Position numbers and translations under genes: made by a program. From NCBI GenBank assembly GCA_963575745.1, contig CAUYUJ010000078.1:62001-118649 (forward strand): DNA of 56,649 nt, given 5' to 3'. The notes under the pieces were generated by a model. The model did no database searches, was not told the DNA's origin, and saw nothing but the letters and a program-made list of their open reading frames with translations. Positions 1-36,050 of the stretch are shown here, piece after piece. Within the stretch, counting starts at the first letter, position 1, and the number at the start of each line of letters is the position of its first letter. The DNA comes from Prorocentrum cordatum (lineage: Eukaryota).

Positions 1-852
1 TAGACAGGACTCACATGATTTCGGCTCGTCTCCGAGCATATCTGATGATATAATATCATCTTCGTCCACAAATGCTGAAACCAAAACACACTGGTCGGGC
101 AGCATAGTTGTTGGGACGCAATAAAGATAATCATCGGTAATCGTCGTAGGATGAAGGTCCATACGTAGCTCGTCGTACCACTCTTCCAGCATCATAGCTT
201 CAATATTGTGTTCCTCATTTTCCTCATAGATTGTCGACAGACGGCCTTCGCTCGGCGATGAAGCGTCTGGTGTGTCTGGAGAAGGCCTGTTTCCAGGCGA
301 CTCGTGTTCTCCAGACGTGTTGCTTGGATGCTGATATTTAGCCAAATCGTCGTGAAATCCTAAGGAAGGGACACGTGAAGTCAAGCATTGAATAAGTCTG
401 GAGTGAGTGCTACCAGTGATCTGAGAAATGTTTAAGCCAGTGCCCACGCATTCGTAATAGTGGAACGCCGGGCTGATGTCGTTGTCATAGTGGATCAGCG
501 TAGACCCGGTGGCGTACTTTACTGCAGGTAGGCTTGGCACACTCTTAGCCAATCGAACTGCTACTACATGTTCTACTCGGAAGTAATTCCGTACGAGATA
601 CTGTAGTGCTAAGTGTACGCGCGGGTGAAACTTGCTGTCGTCTGACAGATTAAGGTTTCCCTTGTAGTCGGGGATATACCCGAAAACTTTGGCAGGTTTC
701 CCTGCGCTGAGGTGTGCCACATAAGCAAGGACGGTTTGCATGGCCATGTTATCCATGCCAAGTTCCCGTGTGAGGAGACATTCGATGTATAGTGTGTGAC
801 GAGCATCAGGATACATCACAATTACCCCACGAGATCCTGCCTTGACAACAAT
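1..852 (-). CDS. Pol continuation after integrase (open to window edge)
   Basis: Manual translation shows a stop-free frame from ~852 (IVVKAGSRGVIVMYPDARHTLYIE...) to base 1. It is missing from the ORF track, probably because it has no stop in the window. Confidence 0.75.
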   Translation of the reverse strand, partial: MVVKAGSRGVIVMYPDARHTLYIECLLTRELGMDNMAMQTVLAYVAHLSAGKPAKVFGYIPDYKGNLNLSDDSKFHPRVHLALQYLVRNYFRVEHVVAVRLAKSVPSLPAVKYATGSTLIHYDNDISPAFHYYECVGTGLNISQITGSTHSRLIQCLTSRVPSLGFHDDLAKYQHPSNTSGEHESPGNRPSPDTPDASSPSEGRLSTIYEENEEHNIEAMMLEEWYDELRMDLHPTTITDDYLYCVPTTMLPDQCVLVSAFVDEDDIISSDMLGDEPKSCESCL

Positions 853-1534
853 GTCCTCTTTCAGGCACGTTTCGGATCACCGGGAATGGGCCGTTCCAGC
901 CTCCATGGTCGTCCTTGGTGGCAGTAGGTCGGTGGTAGTCGACCAAATCCCCTGATGAGTAGAGGCGAGCACCATCAGGAGTCGTCTTAGCCCTAAGAGC
1001 CCGATTTGTCTTGGCTACAGCAGTAGCCTGAGTTATGGCTTCGAGGCTGACTTCCCTTACACGACGTTCTCGTTCGTGTCCTGAAGTCTCGGGTCCCTTG
1101 GGAAAGTCAAGGGTATCGAGATCAGGAAGGAAGGAGGGCTGACGTCCTGTGTGTGCCTGATATGGCGATACTCCGTTATAAAACGTAAACGCATTAGTAA
1201 CGAAGATGCCTTCCGCCAATACTCTAGTGAATACAACAGGGATGTTGTGTCTATTCAATTCTTCCTCAATCATGTGGAGGACGCCTCTGAGAATGCCGTT
1301 TCGTGACTCAATTGAAGTCGCGTGTTGGCCAGGTGCACGGATACGAAGTTCCGTGCCCTTATTGGCCATCATGGTTTTAGCGGCATCGTTATTCAGGGCG
1401 CCTTCTCCGTCTGAGTATAAAACTTTGAAGGGTCCGTGATAGGCAATCCAGCAATAGTGGTAGGCGTCGATGATAGTGTCGCGTTCTCTGTCGGAAATCT
1501 CTAGGCCTGCTGCCAGGCGAATACAACGGTCCAT
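806..1534 (-). CDS. Integrase catalytic core (rve-like), separated from the upstream ORF by a 1-nt frameshift
   Basis: LYSDGEGAL (second D) to HATSIESRN (E), with 33 residues between them; N....GVSPYQ..TGR; GDLVDY.R...GWNGP C-terminal motif. Adding one T in a T-run at ~1541 restores IFHIMD. Confidence 0.88.
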   Translation of the reverse strand: MDRCIRLAAGLEISDRERDTIIDAYHYCWIAYHGPFKVLYSDGEGALNNDAAKTMMANKGTELRIRAPGQHATSIESRNGILRGVLHMIEEELNRHNIPVVFTRVLAEGIFVTNAFTFYNGVSPYQAHTGRQPSFLPDLDTLDFPKGPETSGHERERRVREVSLEAITQATAVAKTNRALRAKTTPDGARLYSSGDLVDYHRPTATKDDHGGWNGPFPVIRNVPERGHCCQGRISWGNCDVS

Positions 1535-4149
1535 AATATGAAAATGGTCCGTTTCTTGTAAAACATGAGGTCCATTTCCCCTTCATCGAGCCAGTTACCA
1601 GGGAGGCTTACCGATGGTAATGTCGAGTTTCCTGGACGTTCCCATGCTCTACATTCCCGACAGGTATCGCAGATTTCCTTGATCATGTTCAGTCGAACGT
1701 TATCAAGCCCCACCTTTTCGAGGATTCGCCTCATCTTTGGCTCCTTCGCATGACACCATCGCAGATGCAGTTTTCGGAGTTCCTTTGTCACAACATGGGG
1801 TTCGTGACTACGGAGACCCTGTAGACTGTGTTGGATGTCAAATCTCGCCCAGTCGGGTAGTCGTGGAGCCCCAGAGCCGGTGGAGGCAAGAGGGTTCCTT
1901 GTAGCTCTACGTAGTTGATCCCCTGTGTTGACTGCGTCTGGAGGTGGTGGTACGCCTTGTAGACGTCCGCGGCGGGCCGCTACCTGTGGCGCATCGCTAG
2001 AAGACGCAGAAGGCGTGTTTCCACGCTCGGGGGCGTCTCGTAGCAGGTCGTAGCTGCTGGTACCAGATGTCGGATCGACGTTACCGAAGGAACGTGGTCG
2101 TGGTGGCCTGGCGTGTGCGCCTTGGCGGCCACCTGAAGCTGAAGCTTGGCCCTCACCAGGTTTAGGTAGGGGTTTCCACCAAGCTGGCACGGTTTTGCCT
2201 TCGGGGTCGTGGTCGTCTGGTAGTTTAAATGGTTCAGCAAAACGACATTTACCAGGTTCGGTATCAAGGTGATTCTTAACACCCTTGCTTCTCGTAAGAT
2301 CCCTCTGACATGCTGGACATGGCCAGTATACAGAGATAGAGTCATGATATTTGCACTGCGTAGGGTCTCTGTTATGGCTAGGACTGTCCTTTCGGACGTT
2401 GTCGATGCATGCCGGGCACGTAGCCACCTTTGGGATGATACGATCACCGATGCGTCTCATACCTTCACCTGGTTCAGCTTGCTCAGGAAGGTCGGCAGGA
2501 TAAGCATGTGCAGTATTTATAGGCGCGTTTCCGCGCGTGGTGTCAATGGCTTTCGCCAAGTAGACGGCTTCCACGAAGGCAGACTGCAGTCGTCGAGTGT
2601 ATTTTTGTGCCAGTGAAAGCTCGGTGTTGCACGGTTGTGCGTGCACATGCTGACCGTTGCACTTGAGTCGCTCAAAGGGTTTAAGAATTGTCTTGTCGTT
2701 GCTGGTGATATTTGTCGGCTTCTTAATATAGTCACCAGTCGTATCTTTAAGTCCAGTAGCGCATTGATCAATGCGCACGGTCGCGATGTGTGGTCGGTTG
2801 GCAAGCTTCGTCCATGGAGAGATATCGCCCACCCATGTTCCTGTCGGTTGTTCGCGTATAAACAACCTCTGAGCGTCATCTTGGGCAACAGCAATTTTAC
2901 CACAATAGATTATGTGTGGTAAGTCTTCTCTGTGGTGCTGTTCCCAAGTGTTATAGTTGACTTTGTAGTTATAGTAAGATGGTGGTCCTGTGGTGCGGCA
3001 GCTGGGTTGCAGTATGGCAACTCGTACGTAGCATATCTTAAAGTAATGATCTATAACCTGCTGCACCGAGGGGTCTCCCAGGTCGACATATGTAGTCTTG
3101 TCCAAGTTGCCGCCTGAGGAAAGTCCCCTTGAGAAGGCAAGTTCTGAGATGCCACCCTCACCACCACAAAGCTCCAACATATCCACGCAATTGTTATGGC
3201 CGTAGCATAGCGTAGCAACTATGCTGTATATGTTAGCGTGTGTGTCGGGCATAGATGTGGGAAGGGTAAGGAACAGGTCATCGTCCTCGTCGGAGCTTAT
3301 CAGCTCAACAGGGGCGCCAGTACTCCAGGTTGCCATAAGATCCTGTCCGAGTCCTGACAAGTCATCGCCGCAATCGTCATTTCCGTCTTCGACGTGCTTT
3401 TTAATGCGGCGAGGCTTGATGCCTGCTTCCTTTTCGGCTTTGAGCCTTTCCTTCTGCTTTATACGCGATTCAGTGGGTAAAGCTTGCTCGTTTTGTTCGT
3501 CGGTCTGTGTACTCATTGTCGTGGTGGAATGGGTACATGCGTCAATCGCCAGAGTCGGGAGGGGGAGAGAACAGTCATCTATGATGACGCGTCTATGTTT
3601 CTGTGGTGATTGAGTAGGCTCGTTTCCGAGCAAGACCGGTTCCTCGGGTTGCCAATACAACCGAGTACTGATGTTGGCAACCCCTGCAGGTAATGGTGCA
3701 TGCCAATCATACCCTGTTGGTTGATCGGTAACTGAGATATCTTGAATAACCGCGTTGGTATCCAGGTTGATTGTTACACGTCGGATGACTTCAGACCATT
3801 TTGGTCCTCCCTTATGAGTCGTCACGTAGTGACGGGTATTATGGTCTGTACGTGTATACGTATTTAAGTATACGGGCACGTTTCCGTGCGTGGTGGTACT
3901 CCCCAGGATTTTGTCGTTTAAGTAACGGATGAGTGTAGTGCGTGTCTGAGCCCGCCATTCAGCATGTCGTACCGTATGGCCGTACCAGTCCAACACATGT
4001 TGTGGTATGGCCTGCTTACAGGTACATGTCCACAGCTTCGAGCTAATCGGTATCGATGATGCTACCTGCATATATGTACCACTTGGTGTACTGTCTTGCA
4101 TATTGAACCGAATACCGAAATGACACAAACGCATCCGTATTACTGACAA
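1501..4149 (-). CDS. pol: Pol part: C5-methyltransferase-like domain, two CxxC-H-C zinc motifs, integrase HHCC domain and first catalytic Asp
   Basis: HLRWCH...CDTCREC (HHCC, ~1650-1770); EMDLMF (first D); CPAC...H...C twice (~2185-2420); methyltransferase-like motifs (see separate feature). Confidence 0.85.
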   Translation of the reverse strand: MSVIRMRLCHFGIRFNMQDSTPSGTYMQVASSIPISSKLWTCTCKQAIPQHVLDWYGHTVRHAEWRAQTRTTLIRYLNDKILGSTTTHGNVPVYLNTYTRTDHNTRHYVTTHKGGPKWSEVIRRVTINLDTNAVIQDISVTDQPTGYDWHAPLPAGVANISTRLYWQPEEPVLLGNEPTQSPQKHRRVIIDDCSLPLPTLAIDACTHSTTTMSTQTDEQNEQALPTESRIKQKERLKAEKEAGIKPRRIKKHVEDGNDDCGDDLSGLGQDLMATWSTGAPVELISSDEDDDLFLTLPTSMPDTHANIYSIVATLCYGHNNCVDMLELCGGEGGISELAFSRGLSSGGNLDKTTYVDLGDPSVQQVIDHYFKICYVRVAILQPSCRTTGPPSYYNYKVNYNTWEQHHREDLPHIIYCGKIAVAQDDAQRLFIREQPTGTWVGDISPWTKLANRPHIATVRIDQCATGLKDTTGDYIKKPTNITSNDKTILKPFERLKCNGQHVHAQPCNTELSLAQKYTRRLQSAFVEAVYLAKAIDTTRGNAPINTAHAYPADLPEQAEPGEGMRRIGDRIIPKVATCPACIDNVRKDSPSHNRDPTQCKYHDSISVYWPCPACQRDLTRSKGVKNHLDTEPGKCRFAEPFKLPDDHDPEGKTVPAWWKPLPKPGEGQASASGGRQGAHARPPRPRSFGNVDPTSGTSSYDLLRDAPERGNTPSASSSDAPQVAARRGRLQGVPPPPDAVNTGDQLRRATRNPLASTGSGAPRLPDWARFDIQHSLQGLRSHEPHVVTKELRKLHLRWCHAKEPKMRRILEKVGLDNVRLNMIKEICDTCRECRAWERPGNSTLPSVSLPGNWLDEGEMDLMFYKKRTIFILWTVVFAWQQA
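2563..3183 (-). other. C5 cytosine methyltransferase-like domain
   Basis: Motif I-like MLELCGGEGG, motif IV-like LQPSC (Cys retained), motif VI-like IREQP, then DQC..G...KKPT, C..H.H and AQKY, in C5-MTase order. Confidence 0.65.
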
Positions 4150-4151
4150 CT

Positions 4152-4573
4152 TTAGATCTTCCAGAGTATCACGTACTGGAGATAACTTCCAAACATATCC
4201 TGGGGGACCGAATATGATGATTTCATGCGGAGTTTCTTGGCTTTTATCAACAGGTTCTGGATACGTGACCAGTGTGGGGCCACTCTCTTTCCTGGAGTTC
4301 GTATATACCAGTCACCCGGAGTACTGATCCATATGAGAGTGTAATCTCCACTGATCACCGCACCTAGATAGTTTGTGCCCACGCTTGTCATAAGTTCGTG
4401 TGGGAAATACGGTCACAAATATAACCTCGTGTGCGGAGGTCGGCGCATGCCTCCCTCGTATCTTCAATGACAAAAGCCCTCTTACTAAGGCAGGTTGCCC
4501 CGCTGTCCTTGTTACCCCCCGGCTTTTCAGCCATCAGGCAAGACGACGAGGGGGCGACGTCGCCCTGCCATCT
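4152..4573 (-). pseudogene. Interrupted polyprotein linker
   Basis: After the TGA at 4574-4576 the same frame continues (RWQGDV...AFVIEDTREACADLRTRGYICDRISH), then shifts frame near 4395 and 4220 to join the 1501-4149 ORF. Confidence 0.6.
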
Positions 4574-7500
4574 TCAAGATGAAGAAGATGTGCCTACAAT
4601 ATCTGCCAGCATCTGGGCTTCCCTCAGATGCTGGAGCTCAGCACTGCAGCGCGCCGTGGCCTCAGAGGCGGATTGCTCCGCAAATGCTGTCAGCATCGAT
4701 GGATTATCCATCAGCTGTTTCAGCACGCCTTTGGACCTAGCGTCGCTGACCGTATGCAATTCACGATTAGTGTATCCCATCACTATTTTACGGCGGGACT
4801 GCACAGCGTCCATGGGTACACTACCACCATGCAGGGCCAGTGTCCTGGCAACAAAACAATCGAACGTCTCGAGATCGTCGATGTTGTCGCCTCGCATGGT
4901 GGCCTTGGCGAGCGTCTCCATCAACCCCTGGGGCAGGTTTCCCTGCAATTGATTGCGCTCCTGCGCTGGGGTCGGCTCGCCTGTCAGCACTGTCTGGAAG
5001 GACGTGCTGCTTGAGCTCGAGGCGGGTTGCCCCGCAGCTCCAAAACAATCACACCTGATCGACAGATGCCCTGACGGCAACTTTGTCGTCGGCATGATTT
5101 TGGAGCCTTCTGGGAGCTCCATTTTGACCTGCCCCTTACCAGGGAATATCAGCTTTTCCTGGCCTCGTTCAAGCACGATGATCGTGCGTTTGTCCTGCAT
5201 ACTGTCGAGACCTAGGATGGCTGGCAGGTCCTTTCCACAGCCTGACACAATGTTCGTCTTGTATGAATCGTGTTGGGCTGACCCCTGGTACTCGCAGGCA
5301 ATGCTAAATGTGCCTACGGTATCCGCTGGGGCCGAACCCTCTCCCACTCCGTTGATATGCAAACGAGAGCGGGGCTCGAACGTACAAGCACGACCATGTG
5401 ACTCAGCAGCCTGGACGAACTTACGGCTCGTGTTCTCGCCCATGATGTTGATCTTCGAACCGACGTCGATGAGTATGGAATTTCCACCGTCATCCAAGAA
5501 CGTCTTACTCGGCTGCTTGATGTGCACAGTTTCTGAAGTGTCGGCTGTGTCGGTAGGCGGGTTTCCCCGCGGCACATTCGTACTCCCTGGCGGGTTACCC
5601 CGCACGACACTGGCATGCGACTCGCTCTCGGCCATGCGTGCCAGGTCAATGTACTGGAAGTACGACACGTGCTGGGCGTGATCACCACGCTCCTCCCGCC
5701 AGTTGGCATACTCATCACGTATGCTCATATACTGCTCGCGGGTAGTGCGCCTTATCAGCGTTAGGTACGAGTGAAGGGCGATGTCTTGCAGCCCCTCGTT
5801 CGTGACGTGATCCCGGTACCGCAACCACTCCTCGAACTCCTCATTCGTCGCTGGGATGTTGACGGCCCTGGCTGCTGTTGCTGCTGACGCCGCTGAGGAT
5901 TCTGATAGGTCTAACGACGGACTATCAGTTTCAGGATTATTGGCATCTAGCATAAGCGTTGTGTGTGTATTACCCATCTGATTCTGGAAATGTCGTACAC
6001 GCAACTCGCGCAGCTGATCAGGGCCCAGTGACATCTCAGCCTCGCCTCCACTCTGGGGAGACATCTGAGGAGTATCATGCAGGTTTCCCTGCTGAGGCGC
6101 CGTCATCGGGATAAGCTGATCGAAATATCCCGTTGCCAAAGGCGGCCTTACCTCTTCAGGCAGGTGTCCCTGCTGGTGTGACGAAACTGTCTGCAAAGCT
6201 AGCATCCTGGTCGTCATCTCCTCCACCATACTCCTCAGCTCCCGCAGCTCCCTCGCTGACTGCTCGGGAGTCTGACTAAGGGAGCCAGTCCATGGGAAGG
6301 ACGATGTTATAATGCCAGGTGCACGACAGATCGCGCATGGTGGCTGCTGGGGATCTCCCCCACGCTGGTTTGTCACGTGGCCCACCACGTTAGAATTCCA
6401 GCATCCCTCGTGGAATAGGTGATTGCACCTCAGGCGGTACACACTATCCCTGGGCTGAAATTCTTCGAGGCATACAGCACAGGTGTCCTCCATCCCAGTA
6501 AAGACTTCTACGTCTGCTACCCTGGGATATACCCGCCGCTGCCTCTCCAATACCGTCTCGGAGGGCATGAAGGCTGATGGGGGTGTCCCCGCTGGATTCA
6601 GCACTTCCTGCACTTCGACATTTGGCATGGAAGTGGTAGGAGTCACGGCAGGCGAGTTTCCTCGCAAAGGTGAGCCCCTATTCCGCACCACGTCGAGTGC
6701 AGCTGCACGTGACTGGTCCCGTACACTTTGCACCGCCTGCCTCCTCCTGAAACATGCCTGCTGAGTGTGGTGCGTCTGCCTGATGTAGTCAGGCACGCCC
6801 CTACTGCCAGACGATATTGAATGGGCAGTGGGTTGCACAACCACCTCTGGTGATGTTGGAGAAGGCATGAAGGCCATGTGCGGGTACATGGAGTGGTCAC
6901 TGCAGCGCACATTGGTGAGGTTATGCATCTGATCCGCCAATTCCCGAACAAATTTGTTCGGGACCCTTGTACCGTCAGGGTATAATGGCGGATTCATCTG
7001 CGTGGGTGGTGGCCTCTGGCCCTGAGACATGCTCGGATGGGCGTTGAACGCCGGGATAAAGGCTCGTTGCCGAGCGGGGTCCCGTGGGTTGGGACCCTCC
7101 GGTTCCCAGGACCAGGCTGGCCTCCACCTCTGTCCACTTGGGTGAGGCAGATTATGGTTCTGCACCTGCTGTACCGCGGCCGCCACTCTTGAGCGATAGT
7201 CGTCGGGTATACCCGCCCTGTGGTGGCTTGGTGTACCAGGCAGGTTTCCCTGCTGACTCGTTGGCGTGCCGGGCGGCATCATGTTGAGGAGGGCTGTGCT
7301 GTGATCAGCCCTAGCCGCAGCTAACCTCTCCATGAGTGTGCCGTTTACGGCAGGGCGGACAGGTGTCCCAAATGGGGATTGTGCTGGCGGAGTGCCCGAT
7401 GGAGTCATGCCCCTTGGAGTGTGCATGCTCTGTGTGGGGCTTGCGTGCATTGGCTCGAACCGAGCAGGTCCGCTTGTAGGCAGGTTTCCCTGCATGGCTT

Positions 7501-10500
7501 GACGATTTCTCGTGGCCATAGCGGACATTGCTCCCTGGCCTGCGGCCCAGGGATCCTGCTGGTACAGCCTGTCCGCCAGCTGTTCTACCTGGTCAGGGTT
7601 CAGCGAAGCTGCAATCTGATGCAGGTCTGAAGTACTTATGGCCTGCCAAGACACGGCGCTCGGCCCTTGGCTTGGGGCACGGCTTGGAGCCGCGCTCCCG
7701 GCCTCACTCTCGGTGATCATAAAGATCCGAAAGATCTCAGGCTGGTTTCCCAGCTGGGTGGGGCTGTAGTGGTCCCCAACGTCCCTGTGGAGGTAGATCA
7801 TGGCTGGATCAGCGCCCTCTTGGTCTCGGGACCACTGGTACTTAATGCTGGAATTACCAACATCAGCCCACCTATCTGAGGCAGTCATCGTACTGACAGA
7901 GACTCGCACACGGCGGCTCCCCAAATATTCTGGGTTGCGCCATTGCCTTCCAGTGGTCAGGTCCTCTACATGGGAAATGTAATACGGTTCAATGATACCG
8001 TTATCTCCCTCGGACAAGAGGACTCCGTTATCGGACCAACAGAACTTCATACCATCTTGTATGGCCTTGCGCCAATCTACAAAGATGACGAGGTCTGAAT
8101 CTGGGTCCCACCCACTGTTCACGGCACGGCGGCGCACTGTCGGCACGAAATGGATGTGTGAACGGCCTGTCCCCCTTTCCTTCGTGTTGTGCTCAGGTCT
8201 ACAGGACAGGCCGTACCACATGATACCTTCGAAAGCGTGCCATCGAGTGCCATGCATGGCGACTTCAGGGTATGGGGCCGGTCTCCCGGCGGGTTCGTCG
8301 CACAGTACAATGTAACTGTACAGCGACCATGGAGCTTTCAATGTCCATGAATGCCCCTGAGAGGCGCGGACGAAGATAGCGGGCTCGCCGGAGTCCCGCA
8401 TTAGCACCTTGAATTGAAGGCGCTGTTTTTCTTCTCCGTCTGGTTCACGAACATGAACAACTTCCATCATGATGGCTGCGAGTTGGTCAACCGAGCGACC
8501 ATACAACTGCTCGCTAATGACTTTGGCCTCGTCATATTTTGGGTTATGTCCAGCGTGCCTCGAGTGACCTGTGTTCCACGGAAAGTCAGCCACGAGTTCC
8601 ACGAGGTTAATCCAACCATCATGATCATCACAGGATCTCAGGCGCCACACAGGATTATGTGACTTATCTGGCGCATGTCTACATATCCTGCTGAGAGCTT
8701 TGCTTAACTTTTTAAGAGCATCATTGGATGTGGGAAGAATTCCGGCCTTCCTGCATTCCTTCATGAATGACTCATCCACCGAACGTATCGGTGGGAGCTT
8801 CCGAAGTGCCAGTCTACCCCTAATCAGATCTGGAGTCCCACTAGTAAAGGATGTGTCTGATGGGTGGTGCAGCTGAACTACTGGCGGGTTTCCCCGCATC
8901 GGAGCCTCTGTTGCCGAAGAGGCTGCGGCCCCAGAAGAGGAGGAAGCTGCGGCAGCAGCGCCTGGCGGGTTTCCCCGCGGAGATGCGCGACTGGCGCTGC
9001 CCCTGATCTTCGGCACCCAGTTACCCCTCGACATAGCACCTTCATCGGACCTCCTGGAACGAGCCGCCACAGGCGAAGCTGGCGCGGGTGCATACCCACT
9101 GCGCTCGAAAGCTGCCGCCCTTTTCGCAATGGACTTGCTGCGACTAAGCGGGCGTCTTCGTTCCTCCATAGGGTCCTGAGGTTGCTGCTTGGGCACAAAC
9201 GCTTGTGGAGGAGTTGCGCCAATTGGCGGCCTCGGCGTCGCAGATCGAGGCACCTCCATATGCACGTCTGGCCCAAGGCTCTGAGAGCTCGCCTTCGGTT
9301 TCGGCTCCGGAGACGGCTTAGGTGTCGGGGGTTCACTCTTAGCCTTCGAAGTTAGTGGGAGTGGGGGCTTCCTAGCCCCCTTCATGTAGATCGTGCTGGA
9401 ATCCTCCAACATCTTGCGAGTTGCCTCGCGCGTGCGTTCTTCTACTGTCCGAATACGCTCCTCATCCTCCGCCACACGTTGAGCCTTTGTCTCGTCCTTG
9501 ATGATCGGCTCTGGTTGTTGGGACTGGCTAGAGACGCCAGGCGAGTTTCCTCGCATACCAGGAAGACTAAAGAGCGCGTCTTTCTCTTCCTGGGTCATGG
9601 CTACCATTCCCCTTGGAGCCGGAGTAGGTTTCTCTTCTTCTTTCGGATCCAAGTGGCCCGAGATCCCGAGACGACTATTCACTACTGCGATCTCTTCCGG
9701 TGTCATCGGGTCAAGTGGCGGATGGCCCTCTTTAGGAGGGGTTTTGCCCCTGTTAGGGCTCAGGCCTTCGTTGTTTCCAACGGGGCATCCTGGCCTGTGA
9801 TTCTGGAACGGCTGGGAACAAGGACCGCATGCAGCGTGAGGCCTATACTGCTTGCGAGCCGCGATAATATCTCGCAACTGGGTCCGCGCTTCTTGAATTT
9901 CAGGGCGGCGGATGTTTGTTGCAAGCTGATAGCCTCCACGGATGGGCCTGCCATCGCCGTCCCTATAGGCAGGATTGCCCTGGCCGAAGGCCGAGTGTTC
10001 CCCTTTTCGGCGTCGTGGGTCGTTGTGCGGAAGTAGCTGGCCACCTCTTCTGAGAGCGTGTTCCTTTGGGCCAGCCTGTCTCCACTCACGAGGAAGTCGA
10101 GCCTGGGGATGTGGCTCTTCTCTGACGCGCGTATGGGAACGAGATCTTCTGGTGTTCTCATCAGAAGAAGCTGCCGATGCAGCAGGAGCGGCACCCGTTG
10201 GAGGTGCTTGAGGAGGCTCCTCTGCGATCCCAGATGGATCGCTCGATGGAGGCAGGTCTCCCTGCTGGGTGGAGCTCGGCGCAAGTGGCTCTTGTGCCGA
10301 TGGTGATGATGATTCAGACTCATCAGGGTCGAAATCGACCTCTTCCTCACCAGTCACGTCCATCATGAGGATGGTGACGTCATCCTCATCTAACCCACAA
10401 CCATCGCCTTCTACTTCTTCTGATGTCGAACTACCAATTATGATGGCCATTGGCGCATCTGGTAAAAGCAGGTTTCCCTGCATGGCCGGCGTCTGGGCGT

Positions 10501-10738
10501 CGCTCGGCTGTCCTGGAGTAGGAGGCGCAGTCGTCGGCTCAGGGTCATCGACGAGCATAGGCTGCCTAGCAATGTTACGCATGGCCGTATGGTTTGGCCT
10601 CATCCCCAGCTCCTGGAGATTCCATCCTGGCGGGGGAAAATCATGACCACGCATAGCCATGGCCATTTCCAGGGCACGACGCCATCTACCATGGGAGTAT
10701 ATCAAGTGTCTCTGCACTTCCTGAGGATTTACTGTCAA
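4574..10738 (-). CDS. Polyprotein middle part (2054 aa): low-complexity linkers, Tpt1/KptA domain, RING-H2 finger, retropepsin-like protease
   Basis: Long ORF overlapping the gag ORF end with a +1 frame offset (~10686-10745); the domain motifs are listed as separate features. Confidence 0.85.
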   Translation of the reverse strand: MTVNPQEVQRHLIYSHGRWRRALEMAMAMRGHDFPPPGWNLQELGMRPNHTAMRNIARQPMLVDDPEPTTAPPTPGQPSDAQTPAMQGNLLLPDAPMAIIIGSSTSEEVEGDGCGLDEDDVTILMMDVTGEEEVDFDPDESESSSPSAQEPLAPSSTQQGDLPPSSDPSGIAEEPPQAPPTGAAPAASAASSDENTRRSRSHTRVREEPHPQARLPREWRQAGPKEHALRRGGQLLPHNDPRRRKGEHSAFGQGNPAYRDGDGRPIRGGYQLATNIRRPEIQEARTQLRDIIAARKQYRPHAACGPCSQPFQNHRPGCPVGNNEGLSPNRGKTPPKEGHPPLDPMTPEEIAVVNSRLGISGHLDPKEEEKPTPAPRGMVAMTQEEKDALFSLPGMRGNSPGVSSQSQQPEPIIKDETKAQRVAEDEERIRTVEERTREATRKMLEDSSTIYMKGARKPPLPLTSKAKSEPPTPKPSPEPKPKASSQSLGPDVHMEVPRSATPRPPIGATPPQAFVPKQQPQDPMEERRRPLSRSKSIAKRAAAFERSGYAPAPASPVAARSRRSDEGAMSRGNWVPKIRGSASRASPRGNPPGAAAAASSSSGAAASSATEAPMRGNPPVVQLHHPSDTSFTSGTPDLIRGRLALRKLPPIRSVDESFMKECRKAGILPTSNDALKKLSKALSRICRHAPDKSHNPVWRLRSCDDHDGWINLVELVADFPWNTGHSRHAGHNPKYDEAKVISEQLYGRSVDQLAAIMMEVVHVREPDGEEKQRLQFKVLMRDSGEPAIFVRASQGHSWTLKAPWSLYSYIVLCDEPAGRPAPYPEVAMHGTRWHAFEGIMWYGLSCRPEHNTKERGTGRSHIHFVPTVRRRAVNSGWDPDSDLVIFVDWRKAIQDGMKFCWSDNGVLLSEGDNGIIEPYYISHVEDLTTGRQWRNPEYLGSRRVRVSVSTMTASDRWADVGNSSIKYQWSRDQEGADPAMIYLHRDVGDHYSPTQLGNQPEIFRIFMITESEAGSAAPSRAPSQGPSAVSWQAISTSDLHQIAASLNPDQVEQLADRLYQQDPWAAGQGAMSAMATRNRQAMQGNLPTSGPARFEPMHASPTQSMHTPRGMTPSGTPPAQSPFGTPVRPAVNGTLMERLAAARADHSTALLNMMPPGTPTSQQGNLPGTPSHHRAGIPDDYRSRVAAAVQQVQNHNLPHPSGQRWRPAWSWEPEGPNPRDPARQRAFIPAFNAHPSMSQGQRPPPTQMNPPLYPDGTRVPNKFVRELADQMHNLTNVRCSDHSMYPHMAFMPSPTSPEVVVQPTAHSISSGSRGVPDYIRQTHHTQQACFRRRQAVQSVRDQSRAAALDVVRNRGSPLRGNSPAVTPTTSMPNVEVQEVLNPAGTPPSAFMPSETVLERQRRVYPRVADVEVFTGMEDTCAVCLEEFQPRDSVYRLRCNHLFHEGCWNSNVVGHVTNQRGGDPQQPPCAICRAPGIITSSFPWTGSLSQTPEQSARELRELRSMVEEMTTRMLALQTVSSHQQGHLPEEVRPPLATGYFDQLIPMTAPQQGNLHDTPQMSPQSGGEAEMSLGPDQLRELRVRHFQNQMGNTHTTLMLDANNPETDSPSLDLSESSAASAATAARAVNIPATNEEFEEWLRYRDHVTNEGLQDIALHSYLTLIRRTTREQYMSIRDEYANWREERGDHAQHVSYFQYIDLARMAESESHASVVRGNPPGSTNVPRGNPPTDTADTSETVHIKQPSKTFLDDGGNSILIDVGSKINIMGENTSRKFVQAAESHGRACTFEPRSRLHINGVGEGSAPADTVGTFSIACEYQGSAQHDSYKTNIVSGCGKDLPAILGLDSMQDKRTIIVLERGQEKLIFPGKGQVKMELPEGSKIMPTTKLPSGHLSIRCDCFGAAGQPASSSSSTSFQTVLTGEPTPAQERNQLQGNLPQGLMETLAKATMRGDNIDDLETFDCFVARTLALHGGSVPMDAVQSRRKIVMGYTNRELHTVSDARSKGVLKQLMDNPSMLTAFAEQSASEATARCSAELQHLREAQMLADIVGTSSSS
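5180..5480 (-). other. Retropepsin-like aspartic protease domain
   Basis: ILIDVGSKINIMG active-site-like motif (DVG instead of D[ST]G), flap-like INGVGEG, C-terminal LPAILGLD. Confidence 0.75.
6321..6483 (-). other. RING-H2 (C3H2C3) zinc finger
   Basis: CAVCLEEF...LRCNHLFHEGCW...CAICR, i.e. C-x2-C...C-x-H-x2-H-x2-C...C-x2-C. Confidence 0.88.
7960..8715 (-). other. TPT1: Tpt1/KptA (PTS_2-RNA) NAD+-dependent RNA 2'-phosphotransferase domain inside the polyprotein
   Basis: Family motifs in the correct order: LSKALSRICRH, DGWINL, KQRLQF, RASQGHS, HGT, GL, RSHIHF, SG, VIFVD, GMKF, SDNGVLL, GII. Confidence 0.9.
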
Positions 10739-13304
10739 TGAGAGTCAAAGCTGCCAAGAGTAGCTCTGAGCTACCGCAAGCATCATTATCTTGTTCTGTC
10801 ATAATACCAGCTTCAAATTGTTCTTGACTCTCAGGATATGCAATTGCAAGTATCTCATGCATCCACATGAGGGTCTGCAAAAGTGCACGCGGTCCATATT
10901 CGCCTGGAGCAAGCGAACCAGGAGGTATGAACGGAGAACCTGGTTCGCCTGCAATGAAGGCCTGAACAAATGCTTGAGACTCCATTTCAATGAAGTCTTC
11001 AGTGGTCTGGGGATATTCCCCCATCAAAGAAGGCCTGTTTCCAGGCGGGATTTCGGGCGGATGTTCGAGGTTCCGTTGAACCTCGGAAGGCGAAGCCTCT
11101 ATAATGGTGTCCTCGTCGTCGCTCTCGTAGGCCATGATGTTGCCTGGGTTCCCGAACATCCAGTCGAGGAAGGAAAGAGGCTCGTTTCCGAGCGTACCGT
11201 GTTCCACGGGAGTGAGTTCATTACTGCCCGTGACGAACCGGCGGACGTACTCGAGGTAATACGCGTATAATCCATGACCATACCCCTCGAGCTCGTCAAT
11301 GTTGTCCACGCCAACGACCCATGTGAAAAATATCTGTTCCATAGCCTCAAAGTCCTGGAGGCTCAGATACTCAATGGATGGTGTGCTTGAGCCGAAATGG
11401 ACTTCGGACGACATGCCCTTTCCATTTCCCTTCGCTGGACAATCTCGCACAAGATGATCGGCACTACCACATTCATGGCATTTGAGAACCTGGCCGTCTC
11501 TAACTCGCGGGTTTCCCCGCCTACCTTTACCTTTACCTGAGGTCTCTCTACGGCCTTTACCACGGCCTTTTCCCCCAAAGAATATCTCATCATGTTGTTC
11601 ATCGGAGAGCCTCTGGAGAAATGCCGCGATACCTCGCCCGTTCAACCTCCGACGACCACGCTTGCCTTTGCCCTTTCCTTTAAAACTCCTACGTATCCTC
11701 CTTCTGACACGACGCACTGGTTTTCGTGTGAACCTCCTCCACCTTCGTTTAGCCTGTTGTAACAGCCAGAATAAATGCTCAGCACGCTGATTGTCATTAT
11801 CCAGATTCATGATATCTGACCAATCTAGAGCTTCAACACCATCTGATGATATAGTGTCTGTATCGGTGCCGGAGTCGAAATCTTCGTCTCCTAAATAGGT
11901 GGATACACCGTCGGTTAGGGGATTTGATTCCCCCCATAACGAGCGGTGTGGTTGTGGTTCTCTAGAGGGAGGGCTGGTTGCCCAGCTTGGTTGTGATCGA
12001 TCCCCTGCTAGTAAAGCAGTGGCTTCTCCTGAATCGTCGGCCCATATGTTTGAGGGCCCGTTTCCAGGCTGGGCTTCAGTGGTCAAGGTAGTGTAGAAAT
12101 TTCCACTACCAGATCCTCTTCCTCTTCCAAACACGGATCCTATGTTACCAGGAGATCGTTCGGATAGGTGGCCTACCGAACGCATTCTCTCCAGCAACTC
12201 ATCATACTGTTGTTGTGTTCGAGGCATTTGGTGATTGAGTGGCTGTAAGAGTTGCATGGCCTTCTGGTTGCCGACGCCTAGGGCGCGGAATAGGATAGTA
12301 GTTAACAGTTGGAAGTTGGGAAGGTCGAATCCCACCGACTGTGCCTCAAGTCGGGCCATTTCGAATCGGGTAAGAGTAACATCGATTCGTTCCCCGTGAG
12401 GCACATGGAAGTCAATAAGTTGTGTGCCGGAAGTGAGCTGTCGCTCATCTTCCAGGCGTTCGAATTTCATGCTGAGGAGAAACATAATATAAGTTACTGG
12501 GTCTGTGTGGACCCCGTCGATATCAGCGCCATAGTTTATGATGTCAGGCGGTACCCTCATGGCGAGTGTCCTCGCTAGGCCTCCCAGGCCGCGTTGTATT
12601 GCGGCCGCTTGGGCCTGTGGCGTCATACGTCCGCTTGTAACGTTGGGCCACGCGTTGACCTCGTAAATGTACTCACGAAAAGGTACATTACCCTGAGGGT
12701 CCCAATATGGGCCATGTGTTTGCCCATCGGTGCTGTTATCTCCCCGACGCATGCGTGCGATTGCTGCCCCCAGCGCGAACCATATGATAGCGAAAACGAT
12801 TAGCCCGAGAATGTGTAACGAAGGACGGTTATGATGAGCGGTGTCGCGCTGGGGTAGCGCCTTGTCGAGTCTTCGAGGCGCTCTGTCTGGCGGGTTTCCC
12901 CGCCCTTGCTTCAGGTATTGCGTTATTGGCTCGTTGCCGAGCGGTTGATAGTAACGCAATGATGAAGCGTATATGGTACCAATCTGGTCGTCTAGACGTC
13001 GTACCTCTCGTGTAGCTTCTTGCTCTTGAATAGATCCTCGTAAATGTACTGGGAGTGGTGGCGCAGGGTAGTAGGTGGTCACGAAGATCGTGCCGAAGAA
13101 TGTGAGGCTGAGAAGAGCAAGAGCTGACCACACGAGAGTGCGGCCAGCTCCGCTACCAAGTCGAAAGTGAGCCTGGTAACTCAAATAAGGCATATAGCCT
13201 GGCAAATAGCATCCATCGCTCTGCTGTGAGGGTACAGTATGAGGGGTGGATGGGTAAGATAGGATAAGATCGATGTAATGATCTTTCCAGCACATAGCGA
13301 ACAC
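10686..13304 (-). CDS. gag: Gag-like polyprotein N-terminal part, with CCHC zinc knuckle
   Basis: Capsid-like segment GPYWDPQGNVPFREYIYEVNAW...QAAAIQRGLGGLARTLA; basic KGKGK/RR tract; knuckle CHECGSADHLVRDC (~11439-11480). The true start may be the internal Met of MRRGD (~12753). Confidence 0.85.
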   Translation of the reverse strand: MFAMCWKDHYIDLILSYPSTPHTVPSQQSDGCYLPGYMPYLSYQAHFRLGSGAGRTLVWSALALLSLTFFGTIFVTTYYPAPPLPVHLRGSIQEQEATREVRRLDDQIGTIYASSLRYYQPLGNEPITQYLKQGRGNPPDRAPRRLDKALPQRDTAHHNRPSLHILGLIVFAIIWFALGAAIARMRRGDNSTDGQTHGPYWDPQGNVPFREYIYEVNAWPNVTSGRMTPQAQAAAIQRGLGGLARTLAMRVPPDIINYGADIDGVHTDPVTYIMFLLSMKFERLEDERQLTSGTQLIDFHVPHGERIDVTLTRFEMARLEAQSVGFDLPNFQLLTTILFRALGVGNQKAMQLLQPLNHQMPRTQQQYDELLERMRSVGHLSERSPGNIGSVFGRGRGSGSGNFYTTLTTEAQPGNGPSNIWADDSGEATALLAGDRSQPSWATSPPSREPQPHRSLWGESNPLTDGVSTYLGDEDFDSGTDTDTISSDGVEALDWSDIMNLDNDNQRAEHLFWLLQQAKRRWRRFTRKPVRRVRRRIRRSFKGKGKGKRGRRRLNGRGIAAFLQRLSDEQHDEIFFGGKGRGKGRRETSGKGKGRRGNPRVRDGQVLKCHECGSADHLVRDCPAKGNGKGMSSEVHFGSSTPSIEYLSLQDFEAMEQIFFTWVVGVDNIDELEGYGHGLYAYYLEYVRRFVTGSNELTPVEHGTLGNEPLSFLDWMFGNPGNIMAYESDDEDTIIEASPSEVQRNLEHPPEIPPGNRPSLMGEYPQTTEDFIEMESQAFVQAFIAGEPGSPFIPPGSLAPGEYGPRALLQTLMWMHEILAIAYPESQEQFEAGIMTEQDNDACGSSELLLAALTLIDSKSSGSAETLDILPW
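11386..11408 (-). other. Relic dinoflagellate spliced leader inside the gag ORF
   Basis: TCCGAAGTCCATTTCGGCTCAAG versus DinoSL TCCGTAGCCATTTTGGCTCAAG: 2 substitutions plus 1 insertion; translates as EVHFGSS. Confidence 0.65.
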
Positions 13305-13385
13305 AAGCAGTGTCCGGGCAAATAGGACGCGCGTGCCTTGAGCCCAAGGCAGCGGCGCGCGAGCTATGCTCCCGATACTGTAACA
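13274..13385 (-). repeat. Candidate short 5' LTR (~112 bp)
   Basis: On the minus strand it starts TGTTA (13385) at the element/satellite boundary and ends TTACA (13274), and contains a TGCCTTG-GGCT-CAAGGCA hairpin. The second LTR is not in the window and no canonical TGG primer-binding site follows, so the inner boundary is uncertain. Confidence 0.4.
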
Positions 13386-13399
13386 TATCCCAAAGAGCT

Positions 13400-13835
13400 A
13401 CCCTTAAAGTCCTGAGAGGCCCCCAAGATGCGTCCCAAGACGGTCCCTGGACGCAGACATGTACGTATTCCCGTCGTGAAACGTACAATGTTCACACATC
13501 CGCCTTCTGGGCTTTCCGACGCTCCTAGACGGCCCAAGAGGCCCCGAAAACCGCCCCAAGACGGCCCAAGAGGCCCCCAAGACGGCCCCGCGACGGTCCA
13601 ATATGGCCCCAAGACGGCCCAAGAGGTCCCCAAAACGGCCCAAGAAGGCTCCAAGACGGCACCAAGAGGGGCCCAAGAGGGCAACCAACAATTCAAAAAT
13701 CTAGTTTTCCGCCCCCACGAGCCCCAGGGGGCCCCAAGAGCGCCCCAACAGGCCGCCAACGGCCCTCAAGAAACCGCCAAGACGCCCCAAGGAGCCCACA
13801 AGAGGCCCCCAGGAGGCCCCCAAAAGACCCCCAGA
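13400..13835. repeat. Degenerate GGCCC(C)AAGA satellite (related tracts at ~17400-17520, 18985-19190, 26480-26690)
   Basis: Repeated ggcccaaga/gccccaaga/cccaagacgg units of about 10-21 bp. Confidence 0.8.

Positions 13836-17163: not shown

Positions 17164-17195
<32 letters not shown>

Positions 17196-19204: not shown

Positions 19205-19495
<291 letters not shown>

Positions 19496-31899: not shown

Positions 31900-36050
<4,151 letters not shown>

What the first reader, a model, noticed from the sequence alone, without database searches (positions are those of the whole stretch)
7960..8715. Tpt1/KptA RNA 2'-phosphotransferase domain fused into an LTR-retrotransposon polyprotein
Seen: a complete Tpt1 domain, in the same frame as the protease, lying between Gag and protease. 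It retains the Arg-His (CRH), KQR, HGT and R-x-HIH motifs. Established: Tpt1 uses an Arg-His-Arg-Arg tetrad and NAD+ to remove the 2'-phosphate left by tRNA ligation, and some family members ADP-ribosylate 5'-phosphate RNA/DNA ends. It is not a standard LTR-element domain, and I do not know of it being described in a copia polyprotein. Inference: protease-released Tpt1 could cap or protect element RNA/cDNA ends, or process a tRNA-fragment primer. It could equally be a passive passenger.
Basis: partly seen in the sequence, partly recalled or inferred. Interest (0 to 1): 0.88.

Follow-up and report, generated by a model that had tools for sequence, protein, structure and literature searches.

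The report
Tpt1 RNA-repair enzyme inside giant retroelement
A complete, apparently working copy of the RNA 2'-phosphotransferase Tpt1 sits inside the giant polyprotein of a high-copy, integrase-bearing mobile element of planktonic algae, an accessory enzyme I could not find described for any retrotransposon.

Summary
The domain lies on the minus strand at 8006-8713, inside an open 2,056-codon frame (4574-10744).

- **Domain identity:** it matches the Pfam Tpt1 family PF01885 over the whole profile (79 bits, cut-off 26).
- **Fold:** the predicted structure is confident (pLDDT 87.8). Its 19 listed matches at ranks 1-22 among solved structures are all Tpt1/KptA.
- **Catalytic residues:** the Arg-His-Arg-Arg tetrad is kept, as are 33 of 37 columns strongly conserved in other Tpt1 proteins.
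- **Not a chimera:** contigs from four independent public runs cover the whole element at high copy and bridge both domain borders.
- **Relatives:** proteins 46-71% identical keep the motifs.

The element class is only partly shown. A retroviral-type integrase is supported and a CCHC knuckle is borderline. The "protease" is a motif reading only. No reverse transcriptase or LTR lies in the window.

The closest named relatives carry the label Pyramimonas sp., a green alga, not a dinoflagellate.

The function is inferred: NAD+-dependent clean-up of 2'-phosphates, or ADP-ribose capping of 5'-phosphate ends, on the element's own RNA or cDNA.

Unexpectedly, the element also carries 32 sense-strand GNRA hairpins, 25 of them in one codon phase.

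The parts
1..13450 (-). Visible part of the mobile element. It runs off the window at position 1, and its upstream end near 13.4-13.5 kb is not defined.
   Evidence: Contigs of 4 public runs cover all 30 bins of 1-13450 at high summed depth. All element features are on the minus strand.
10686..13397 (-). Gag-like ORF (903 codons) with an arginine-rich stretch (11646-11747) and one C-x2-C-x4-H-x4-C knuckle (11439-11480).
   Evidence: zf-CCHC at E 0.0014 and 19.1 bits, just under the 20.8 cut-off. Weak, non-significant likeness to HIV nucleocapsid, E about 1. Coordinates.
4574..10744 (-). 2,056-codon open frame carrying Tpt1, a RING finger and the protease-like motif.
8006..8713 (-). Tpt1/KptA domain (Pfam envelope, residues 678-913). 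The conserved module is about 7820-8764.
   Evidence: PF01885 at 79 bits. PDB matches 7yw3 and 7yw2. AF2 pLDDT 87.8 and pTM 0.82. The 19 listed Foldseek PDB matches at ranks 1-22 are all Tpt1/KptA. 33 of 37 strongly conserved family columns are kept.
8669..8683 (-). C-R-H-A-P: the Arg-His of the catalytic tetrad.
   Evidence: Aligned to LRH of human TRPT1. These are R27/H28 of the strongly conserved columns. The tetrad is defined in PMC12678800 (passages read).
8411..8431 (-). E-K-Q-R-L-Q-F: the conserved Lys and the third tetrad residue (Arg).
8147..8167 (-). G-R-S-H-I-H-F: the fourth tetrad Arg and two conserved His.
6323..6481 (-). RING-H2-type zinc finger in the same frame.
   Evidence: zf-RING_11 at 35.1 bits (cut-off 27). 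zf-RING_2 at 26.9 bits (cut-off 27.3). Coordinates.
5198..5476 (-). Protease-like motifs (ILIDVGS ... AILGLDSM). This is a reading by eye only.
   Evidence: Seen in the translation. No Pfam family at E up to 10 and no relevant PDB sequence match.
1501..4311 (-). 936-codon ORF of unknown function. It ends in an H-x4-H ... C-x2-C finger (1642-1767) and the first integrase-core strand (1558-1581).
   Evidence: gag_pre-integrs only at E 0.35. No PDB or NCBIfam match.
806..1582 (-). Integrase core (rve-type), cut off from its N-terminal part by a 1-base deletion particular to this copy.
   Evidence: 88 relatives. 3 of 48 hit Pfam rve, best 6.5e-07. All 44 listed Foldseek matches (ranks 1-50) are retroviral or Ty3 integrases, E 5.5e-03 and weaker. 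Relatives read straight through 1543. Most contigs have an extra T behind 1543.
1..876 (-). Continuation of the polyprotein after the integrase (292 codons, open at the window edge).
   Evidence: Relatives align continuously across about 851-861 into this frame. An extra AT behind 850 is present in most contigs.
24..12942 (-). Array of 32 hairpins: a 5-bp stem, a GNRA loop and mostly a 3' C. The core form is GCNNG-GAAA-CNNGC-C. Those nearest the Tpt1 module are at 8965-8978, 8884-8897, 8277-8290 (inside the domain) and 7741-7754.

Best explanation
A complete and probably active Tpt1/KptA-type NAD+-dependent phosphotransferase domain is a fixed module of a very large, high-copy element with the copia-like order Gag, Tpt1, RING, protease-like motif, unknown 840 residues, integrase. 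The likely host is planktonic green algae. The domain is translated as part of the polyprotein. Inferred: it travels with Gag and integrase into the particle or replication complex and works on the element's own nucleic acid. The role I think most likely is removal of internal 2'-phosphates. In organisms with plant- or fungal-type tRNA ligase, a broken RNA that is healed and sealed keeps a 2'-phosphate at the junction. A genomic RNA of more than 13 kb must be both translated and copied end to end, so it would profit from carrying the enzyme that removes this mark. The second possible role uses the same active site: capping 5'-phosphate ends of RNA or cDNA with ADP-ribose to shield them from 5' exonucleases or end-joining. 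Shown: the domain's identity, fold, catalytic residues, presence in many copies and conservation in diverged relatives. Inferred: release from the polyprotein, packaging, substrate and benefit.
For: Identity: PF01885 over the full profile at 79 bits. Human and mouse TRPT1 are the best PDB sequence matches. The AF2 model has pLDDT 87.8. All 19 listed PDB Foldseek matches at ranks 1-22 are Tpt1/KptA, with target-normalised TM 0.72-0.76 for 7yw3 and 7yw2. Active site: Arg-His, Lys-x-Arg, His-Gly-Thr and Gly-Arg-x-His-x-His are all present. 33 of 37 columns that are at least 80% conserved in 83 other Tpt1 proteins are kept, against 28 of 117 weakly conserved columns. The tetrad is essential in characterised enzymes (PMC12678800, passages read). 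Part of the element, not a chimera: in 4 runs from 4 studies all 30 bins of 1-13450 are covered. The three Tpt1 bins have summed depth 754-1023 (X1) and 1901-3876 (X2). Contig pieces bridge both domain borders: X2 record 15 at 8663-8803 and X9 record 31 at 7400-8134. Constraint over time: relatives at 71%, 69% and 46% identity keep 25 of 32, 13 of 16 and 30 of 33 strong columns. The frame is open for 2,056 codons. GC3 of the module (0.557) lies within the range of the other segments, 0.539-0.636. Precedent: KptA domains embedded in polyproteins of a picorna-like virus and a nidovirus (PMC9503650, passages read). The nidovirus polyprotein is the third-best viral structural match, E 8.4e-11. A residual 2'-phosphate harms a ligated mRNA and blocks Xrn1 (PMC6456296, passages read).
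Against: No activity, expression or processing data exist, and no RNA run was listed. dN/dS across copies could not be computed. The only variants shown are private to this copy, 15 synonymous and 25 non-synonymous of 40, close to neutral decay. This copy is itself broken by frameshifts. The middle of the element, including Tpt1, has 2-5 times lower summed depth than its ends, so many copies may lack it or be more diverged. For the 46-71% relatives, linkage to the element is not shown, because they are short fragments. One, P0007, joins element sequence to a partial Tpt1 in a different order. One residue conserved in at least 80% of the other Tpt1 proteins, R218 of the 266-residue query, is replaced in all three relatives that cover it, which may mean altered specificity. 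The host should already have its own Tpt1. No ribozyme or other source of 2',3'-cyclic ends was found in the element.
Confidence: 0.5

Rival explanations
1. Passenger: a cellular Tpt1 coding sequence was captured in frame between linkers and is carried along without benefit to the element. It looks intact only because capture was recent or because loss is slow.
For: The domain sits between long low-complexity linkers and could be deleted without touching other domains. A rare variant joins 5547 to 8881 and so lacks it (1 contig, depth 27.7). The middle of the element has lower depth than its ends. No dN/dS is available.
Against: The domain is far from any cellular Tpt1. The best hit outside the family group has E 2.1e-16 at 38% identity. 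The Pfam score is only 79 bits, against 105-510 bits for the 13 cellular-type proteins of the 15 scanned. Yet 33 of 37 strong columns persist, also in relatives at 46-71% identity. That is the pattern of long evolution under constraint, not recent capture. Its composition is like the rest of the frame.
Confidence: 0.15
2. Conflict enzyme aimed at the host: the domain acts as an ADP-ribosyltransferase on host RNA, DNA or tRNA, or undoes a host RNase- or NAD-based defence. It would not serve the element's own RNA.
For: The Tpt1 fold belongs to the ADP-ribosyltransferase superfamily, widely used in virus-host conflicts (PMC9503650, passages). There is a family-specific insertion in the N lobe (residues 31-75 of the query, pLDDT 52-87). 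R218 is lost. A RING finger, a typical host-manipulating domain, lies in the same frame.
Against: The full RNA-binding N lobe and the phosphate-binding tetrad are kept, which points to a nucleic-acid phosphate as substrate. Nothing in the data identifies a host target.
Confidence: 0.15
3. The carrier is not an LTR retrotransposon but another integrase-bearing element or an endogenous virus, so 'retrotransposon polyprotein' is the wrong frame for the finding.
For: No reverse transcriptase, RNase H, LTR pair or primer-binding site lies in 13.4 kb. The protease is not detectable. About 840 unexplained residues separate the protease-like motif from the integrase. Near-identical sequence occurs in 20 runs of 14 studies from marine, freshwater, estuary and urban samples.
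Against: The order CCHC knuckle, D-x-G/ILG-x-D motif, HHCC finger, rve core is that of Ty1/copia. In that order the reverse transcriptase lies after the integrase, beyond the window edge. The frame is still open at position 1. High copy number with many diverged copies fits a retrotransposon.
Confidence: 0.15
4. Artefact: a chimeric assembly, or an element inserted next to a host Tpt1 gene so that the frames merge by accident.
For: None found.
Against: Four independent runs hold the Tpt1 region at repeat-level depth, with contig pieces crossing both borders. The frame is open for 2,056 codons.
Confidence: 0.02

Closest known systems
Cellular Tpt1 / KptA / TRPT1 (Pfam PF01885; PDB 7yw3, 7yw2, 6e3a, 8tg4, 9ld6)
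   Same: Same two-lobe fold, full-length profile match, Arg-His-Arg-Arg tetrad, and conserved Lys and His.
   Different: Embedded in a polyprotein of more than 2,000 residues rather than standing alone at about 180-260 residues. Low family score (79 bits). An insertion of about 45 residues in the N lobe, and a conserved extension of about 60 residues after the domain. R218 is replaced.
KptA domains inside polyproteins of positive-strand RNA viruses (Botrylloides leachii nidovirus, Beihai picorna-like virus)
   Same: A Tpt1 domain made as part of a replicative polyprotein of an RNA-based genetic element (PMC9503650). The nidovirus polyprotein is a strong structural match, E 8.4e-11 at 28% identity.
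   Different: Those are RNA viruses of animals, with no integrase or Gag. Here the carrier is a genome-integrated, high-copy element with a retroviral-type integrase.
LTR and DIRS retrotransposons with captured accessory enzymes (DNMT in KnitGypsy-Dnmt3 and SymbioDIRS-Dnmt3; chromodomain; DnaQ-like exonuclease)
   Same: A cellular enzyme domain fixed in frame in a retroelement polyprotein and kept with its key residues (PMC5890265 passages; PMC6338049 passages).
   Different: The enzyme is different, and it lies between Gag and protease rather than in Pol. Neither paper mentions Tpt1: 0 occurrences of 'phosphotransferase' in either and of 'Tpt1' in PMC5890265.
Ty1/copia (Pseudoviridae) architecture
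   Same: The order Gag knuckle, protease-like motif, HHCC finger and integrase core, with the frame continuing past the integrase.
   Different: Much larger: more than 13.4 kb before any reverse transcriptase. It has extra Tpt1, RING and an unexplained 840-residue segment. RT, RNase H and LTRs were not seen.
tRNA ligase-Tpt1 fusion proteins (P0044: SPRY, DUF7920, AAA_33, tRNA_lig_CPD, Tpt1)
   Same: Tpt1 fused to other proteins of the RNA healing and sealing pathway exists in nature.
   Different: That is a cellular-type repair fusion with a high Tpt1 score (163 bits). It has no mobile-element domains.

Membership tests
Tpt1/KptA RNA 2'-phosphotransferase (PF01885) | Significant full-length match to the family profile. 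| tested here: met
   E 6e-22, 79 bits against a cut-off of 26, profile 4-177 of 177. The NCBIfam equivalog NF002014 scores only 24 bits against a cut-off of 239, so this is not an orthologue of the bacterial enzyme.
Tpt1/KptA RNA 2'-phosphotransferase (PF01885) | Two-lobe fold: an N-terminal nucleic-acid lobe and a C-terminal NAD+ lobe of ADP-ribosyltransferase type. | tested here: met
   AF2 pLDDT 87.8 and pTM 0.82. The 19 listed Foldseek PDB matches at ranks 1-22 are all Tpt1/KptA, with 249-258 alignment columns for the 18 full-length ones.
Tpt1/KptA RNA 2'-phosphotransferase (PF01885) | Arg-His-Arg-Arg catalytic tetrad, plus the conserved Lys and His. | tested here: met
   R27, H28, K111, R113, H169 and R199 of the 266-residue query fall in columns at least 80% conserved among 83 other family members. 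They align with the human enzyme. The tetrad is as defined in PMC12678800.
Tpt1/KptA RNA 2'-phosphotransferase (PF01885) | NAD+-dependent removal of an internal RNA 2'-phosphate, or 5'-phosphate ADP-ribosylation. | not testable with these tools
   Needs enzyme assays or yeast tpt1 complementation.
Ty1/copia-type LTR retrotransposon | Retroviral-type (rve) integrase with an HHCC finger. | tested here: met
   The window sequence itself has no Pfam hit. However, 3 of 48 aligned relatives hit rve (best 6.5e-07), and all 44 listed fold matches are retroviral or Ty3 integrases at E 5.5e-03 and weaker. The HHCC motif is at 1642-1767.
Ty1/copia-type LTR retrotransposon | Gag with a nucleocapsid CCHC knuckle. 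| tested here: inconclusive
   zf-CCHC at 19.1-19.2 bits, under the 20.8 cut-off. No capsid family was found.
Ty1/copia-type LTR retrotransposon | Aspartic (retropepsin-type) protease. | tested here: inconclusive
   Only the motifs ILIDVGS and AILGLDSM, read by eye. No Pfam family at E up to 10 and no relevant PDB match.
Ty1/copia-type LTR retrotransposon | Reverse transcriptase and RNase H downstream of the integrase. | not testable with these tools
   No RT family in any ORF of the window. The frame runs off the window at position 1. No genome is held, and no related contig is in the JGI or IMG/VR collections.
Ty1/copia-type LTR retrotransposon | Long terminal repeats and a tRNA primer-binding site. 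| tested here: inconclusive
   Only one end can lie in the window. No long direct repeat pair was found. A recalled initiator-tRNA-type 12-mer gave 1 match with 2 mismatches, against 3.79 expected by chance.
Ty1/copia-type LTR retrotransposon | Dispersed high copy number with diverged copies. | tested here: met
   20,947 contig pieces laid in X1 and 6,484 in X2, spread over identity classes from at least 99% down to under 90%.

The most novel reading that the evidence does not exclude
The element is a self-sufficient retroelement that carries its own NAD+-dependent nucleic-acid repair or capping enzyme, and transposition needs it. Tpt1 is released from the polyprotein inside the particle. The genomic RNA is recruited to the particle through about 32 defined GNRA hairpins, bound by the arginine-rich and CCHC part of Gag. 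Inside, Tpt1 clears 2'-phosphates, or caps 5'-phosphate ends, so that a very long RNA can be copied and the cDNA survives. This would be the first natural setting in which the non-tRNA activity of Tpt1 has a clear client.
Probability: 0.25. Interest if true: 0.8.

Novelty: new variant of a known kind. Interest (0 to 1): 0.64.

Why it matters
Tpt1 homologues occur in many organisms that lack the ligase that makes 2'-phosphate junctions. Their ability to cap 5'-phosphate ends with ADP-ribose has no settled biological purpose.

A mobile element that has kept an intact Tpt1 through long divergence offers a natural test. Its only plausible clients are its own RNA, primer or cDNA, or the host's defences.

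The finding also adds a new kind of accessory enzyme to retroelement polyproteins. It links them to the rare RNA-virus polyproteins that carry the same domain.

The element is abundant in plankton data from many studies, so material to test this should be easy to obtain.

Tried and rejected
**Databases and collections that gave nothing**
- Own genome: not held.
- Longer fused homologues: none among 874 candidates.
- Cluster look-up for sources of the fragments: switched off.
- Related DNA loci: none in JGI metagenome contigs or IMG/VR.
- As a result, dN/dS across copies, copies without Tpt1, RT and LTRs could not be examined.
- Earlier findings of this scan: nothing for this genome or these sequences.

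**Expression**
- No RNA holder was listed by the look-up of sequencing runs.

**Features searched for and not found**
- Rfam at E up to 1 over 1-15000: only a chance-level mir-598 match outside the element. No ribozyme was found.
- Primer-binding-site motif: chance level.
- LTR pair: none in the window.
- Protease region: no Pfam or PDB support.
- The 936-residue ORF: no Pfam, NCBIfam or PDB match. By eye its middle recalls methyltransferase motifs, but no tool supports that, so I do not claim it.
- The remaining ORFs of the window: 0 families in 8 ORFs scanned (6 of them outside the element) and 0 in the 46 of 99 listed ORFs that I scanned.

**Ideas considered and rejected**
- That the relatives' M starts show a stand-alone Tpt1 gene. 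The fragment proteins begin with M even where the window has V, F or I, so the starts come from ORF calling. P0004 also continues about 50 conserved residues past the point where P0154 stops.

**Literature**
- Searches for Tpt1/KptA or PF01885 together with retrotransposon or polyprotein found no report of the fusion.
- I recalled that a 2'-phosphate blocks reverse transcriptase, but found no passage stating it. I therefore do not use it as evidence.
Full report
**What is there**

Read on the + strand, the reported interval is full of stops. On the minus strand it lies inside a stop-free frame of 2,056 codons, 4574-10744.

Pfam places a complete Tpt1/KptA domain at residues 678-913 of that frame, which is window 8006-8713. 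The match to PF01885 has E 6e-22 and 79 bits against a cut-off of 26, and covers profile positions 4-177 of 177. A sequence search of solved structures finds only tRNA 2'-phosphotransferases: human 7yw3 at 3.8e-11 and mouse 7yw2 at 1.7e-09.

I built an alignment of the domain with 86 relatives and predicted the structure from it. The model is confident, with pLDDT 87.8 and pTM 0.82. Its 19 listed matches at ranks 1-22 in the PDB are all Tpt1/KptA enzymes from human, mouse, bacteria, archaea and yeast. PARP catalytic domains follow only at E above 0.02.

Among 83 other family members, 38 columns are at least 80% conserved. The window protein has a residue in 37 of them and keeps the consensus in 33. 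It matches the consensus in only 28 of 117 weakly conserved columns. The kept columns include:
- the Arg-His pair;
- the Lys-x-Arg;
- His-Gly-Thr;
- Gly-Arg-x-His-x-His.

The first, second and last of these motifs hold the Arg-His-Arg-Arg tetrad and the Lys described as functionally important in PMC12678800; His-Gly-Thr may hold that paper's conserved His, a match I did not check (passages read).

**Is it really part of a mobile element?**

No genome is held for this window, so I turned to public sequencing runs. Near-identical words of the 6.2-kb frame occur in 20 runs from 14 studies. These include three differently labelled organisms and marine, freshwater, estuary and urban metagenomes.

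I laid the contigs of four of these runs, from four studies, on 1-13450. The results:
- All 30 bins are covered in all four runs.
- There are 20,947 pieces in X1 and 6,484 in X2, in identity classes from at least 99% to under 90%. This is a high-copy family with old and young members.
- The three bins holding Tpt1 have summed depth 754-1023 in X1 and 1901-3876 in X2. That is repeat level, although 2-5 times below the element's ends.
- Among the 32 pieces shown of 28,643, X2 record 15 (8663-8803) crosses the upstream border of the domain.
- X9 record 31 (7400-8134, about 91% identical) crosses the downstream border.

A chimeric assembly or a chance merger with a host gene is thus excluded.

**The copy in the window is slightly decayed**

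Most contigs of other copies carry extra bases relative to the window:
- 2 bases at 10729-10731;
- 1 base behind 4398;
- 1 base at 4220 or 4221;
- 1 base behind 1543;
- 2 bases behind 850.

These are the changes needed to bring the five minus-strand ORFs into one frame. Protein relatives read straight through the two downstream sites. The state of the stop at 4574-4576 in other copies was not shown.

The 40 best-supported differences between this copy and the majority are 15 synonymous and 25 non-synonymous. That is what a dead copy accumulates, and it says nothing about selection on the family.

**What kind of element?**

Reading 5' to 3' on the minus strand, the element contains:
1. A 903-codon ORF with an arginine-rich stretch and one CCHC knuckle. 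The knuckle scores 19.1 bits, just under the 20.8 cut-off.
2. The 2,056-codon frame, holding in order:
   - long low-complexity linkers;
   - Tpt1;
   - a RING-H2 finger (zf-RING_11 at 35.1 bits);
   - a pair of motifs, ILIDVGS and AILGLDSM, spaced as in retropepsins.
3. A 936-codon ORF of unknown content, ending in an HHCC finger.
4. An integrase-core ORF.
5. A further 292 codons, open at the window edge.

The integrase core has no Pfam hit of its own. It does have 88 relatives at 42-89% identity. Of 48 that I aligned, 3 hit Pfam rve, best 6.5e-07. Its model is mediocre (pLDDT 67.3). Even so, all 44 listed matches at ranks 1-50 are retroviral, foamy-virus or Ty3 integrases, though none is better than E 5.5e-03.

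The protease-like region found nothing, even at E 10. No reverse transcriptase, RNase H, LTR pair or convincing primer-binding site is in the window. In a copia-type order the reverse transcriptase would lie beyond position 1. So "copia-like retroelement" is the best reading, but only the integrase is firmly shown.

**Relatives and host**

An exhaustive search of 1.84 billion representative proteins gave 765 Tpt1 hits at E up to 0.001. Only a small group is close:
- one 239-residue protein at 46% identity;
- short fragments at 53-83% identity in local BLASTP alignments.

All other hits are ordinary Tpt1 proteins at 29-45% identity.

The word-based search added two fragments, at 71% and 69% identity. 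Both carry the label Pyramimonas sp. in EukProt, and together they span the domain with every motif kept. The relatives keep 25 of 32, 13 of 16 and 30 of 33 strongly conserved columns.

29 of the 88 integrase relatives bear the same label, the best at 88-89% identity. Nothing I saw points to a dinoflagellate.

Two cautions apply:
- The diverged Tpt1 relatives are short fragments, so their linkage to the element is not shown.
- One fragment, P0007, joins the region downstream of the integrase to a partial Tpt1. It is a rearranged or chimeric piece.

**How it most likely works**

Shown: an intact catalytic domain of the Tpt1 type, fixed in a high-copy element and conserved in diverged relatives. 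Everything else is inference from the known chemistry of the family.

Tpt1 removes the 2'-phosphate that plant- and fungal-type tRNA ligase leaves at a sealed junction. The same active site caps 5'-phosphate RNA or DNA ends with ADP-ribose (PMC12678800, passages). A leftover 2'-phosphate on a ligated mRNA triggers further cleavage and blocks Xrn1 (PMC6456296, passages).

My best guess has two parts:
- The element carries the enzyme to keep its very long genomic RNA, or its primer, free of such marks after healing of breaks.
- Alternatively, it caps the 5'-phosphate ends of cDNA or RNA.

The nearest precedents are KptA domains in the polyproteins of a nidovirus and a picorna-like virus. The authors of PMC9503650 also propose RNA-end processing for those. 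The nidovirus protein is the third-best viral structural match.

Passenger status is less likely. The domain is very diverged from cellular Tpt1 yet keeps the catalytic columns.

**Novelty**

Three full-text searches found no description of Tpt1 in a retroelement. The searches covered Tpt1/KptA or PF01885 together with retrotransposon or polyprotein, and I read passages from the hits. Passages of a review of retrotransposon accessory domains and of the DNMT-retrotransposon paper do not mention it either. Supplements were not examined.

I rate it a new variant of a known kind: a retroelement polyprotein with a new accessory enzyme.

**An unexpected second feature**

The sense strand of the element carries 32 perfect hairpins with a 5-bp stem and a GNRA loop:
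- 22 with a GAAA loop;
- 6 with GCAA;
- 3 with GAGA;
- 1 with GTAA.

By comparison, there are 2 on its antisense strand and 2 in the other 43 kb, both strands together.

The core form GCNNG-GAAA-CNNGC occurs 21 times, against a mean of 0.006 in 500 dinucleotide shuffles. Other properties:
- The inner stem pairs covary.
- 31 of 32 stems do not extend beyond 5 bp.
- 27 of 32 are followed by C.
- The mean folding energy of the 14-mers is -7.9 kcal/mol.
- 25 of 32 lie in one codon phase, including 21 of 22 GAAA hairpins, and there encode x-Gly-Asn-x-Pro.
- In 14 cases this places G_GGA_AAC in the phase of a -1 slippery site. That this heptamer is a known slippery site is recalled, not tested.
- All but one lie outside the Tpt1, RING and protease-like regions; the exception (8277-8290) is inside the Tpt1 domain. 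Two others sit just upstream of the Tpt1 module and one about 25 codons downstream.
- Rare contigs join 5547 to 8881 or to 12883, or go back from 12903 to 8882. Both ends of each joint lie within about 10 bases of one of three identical hairpins, so the hairpins are recombination points.
- Relatives at 40-55% identity lack the Gly-Asn-x-Pro peptide at the homologous places. It occurs once in 18,998 residues.

Rfam has no match, and one literature search found nothing similar. I could not link the hairpins to Tpt1. Binding sites for the arginine-rich and CCHC part of Gag are my best guess.

Noticed in passing
window 24-12942, minus strand (for example 8884-8897, 7741-7754, 5557-5570): 32 sense-strand hairpins with a 5-bp stem and a GNRA loop. 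The core form is GCNNG-GAAA-CNNGC-C, seen 21 times against 0.006 expected. The stems covary and are exactly 5 bp long. 25 of 32 are in one codon phase, encoding x-G-N-x-P. There is no Rfam match and the function is unknown. My guesses are Gag-binding packaging sites or in-phase G_GGA_AAC slip sites.
   Followed up: partly
window 5547, 8881, 12883, 12903: Rare contigs in public runs join these places, skipping 3,333 or 7,335 bases or going back. Each join lies within about 10 bases of one of three identical GCGGG-GAAA-CCCGC hairpins. This suggests hairpin-mediated recombination or template switching that deletes or shuffles modules, Tpt1 included.
   Followed up: partly
window 6323-6481, minus strand: A RING-H2-type zinc finger in the same polyprotein frame as Tpt1 (zf-RING_11 at 35.1 bits). 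This is a second unusual accessory domain for a copia-like element.
   Followed up: no
window 1768-4311, minus strand: About 840 residues between the protease-like motif and the integrase finger have no Pfam, NCBIfam or PDB match. By eye, the stretch around residues 370-520 recalls methyltransferase motifs. That is a recalled likeness with no tool support.
   Followed up: partly
window 850, 1543, 4220-4221, 4398, 10729-10731: This copy lacks 1 or 2 bases that most other copies have at these places. The master element probably encodes one polyprotein of more than 4,400 residues. A stop at 4574-4576 remains unexplained.
   Followed up: partly
whole element, runs X1-X20: Near-identical sequence occurs in 20 runs of 14 studies. 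These include three differently labelled organisms and marine, freshwater, estuary and urban metagenomes. The cause is either a cosmopolitan host or recent spread between hosts.
   Followed up: no
protein P0007, against window about 640-760 and 8430-8610: A 102-residue database fragment joins the region downstream of the integrase directly to the middle of the Tpt1 N lobe. The join is beside an imperfect hairpin at window 664. It is a rearranged copy or a chimeric contig.
   Followed up: no
window 8101-8103 (residue 218 of the 266-residue query): An Arg conserved in at least 80% of 83 other Tpt1 proteins (the SGMR motif) is Asp here and in P0154, and Val in P0004. This family-specific change might alter specificity.
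   Followed up: no
proteins P0044, P0012, P0011: Among distant Tpt1 hits, P0044 is a 1,700-residue protein fusing SPRY, DUF7920, a kinase-like domain, the tRNA-ligase phosphodiesterase domain and Tpt1. P0012 has four tandem Tpt1 domains and P0011 has two.
   Followed up: no
window 13500-56649: The rest of the window is rich in trinucleotide and short satellite arrays, such as (TCC)n at 14741-17336, (CGT)n at 19211-19497, (TAG)n at 33744-34803, and 11-bp CCCCAAGAGGC-type repeats at 13527-13682 and 19025-19184. None of the 52 long ORFs scanned there has a Pfam family.
   Followed up: partly
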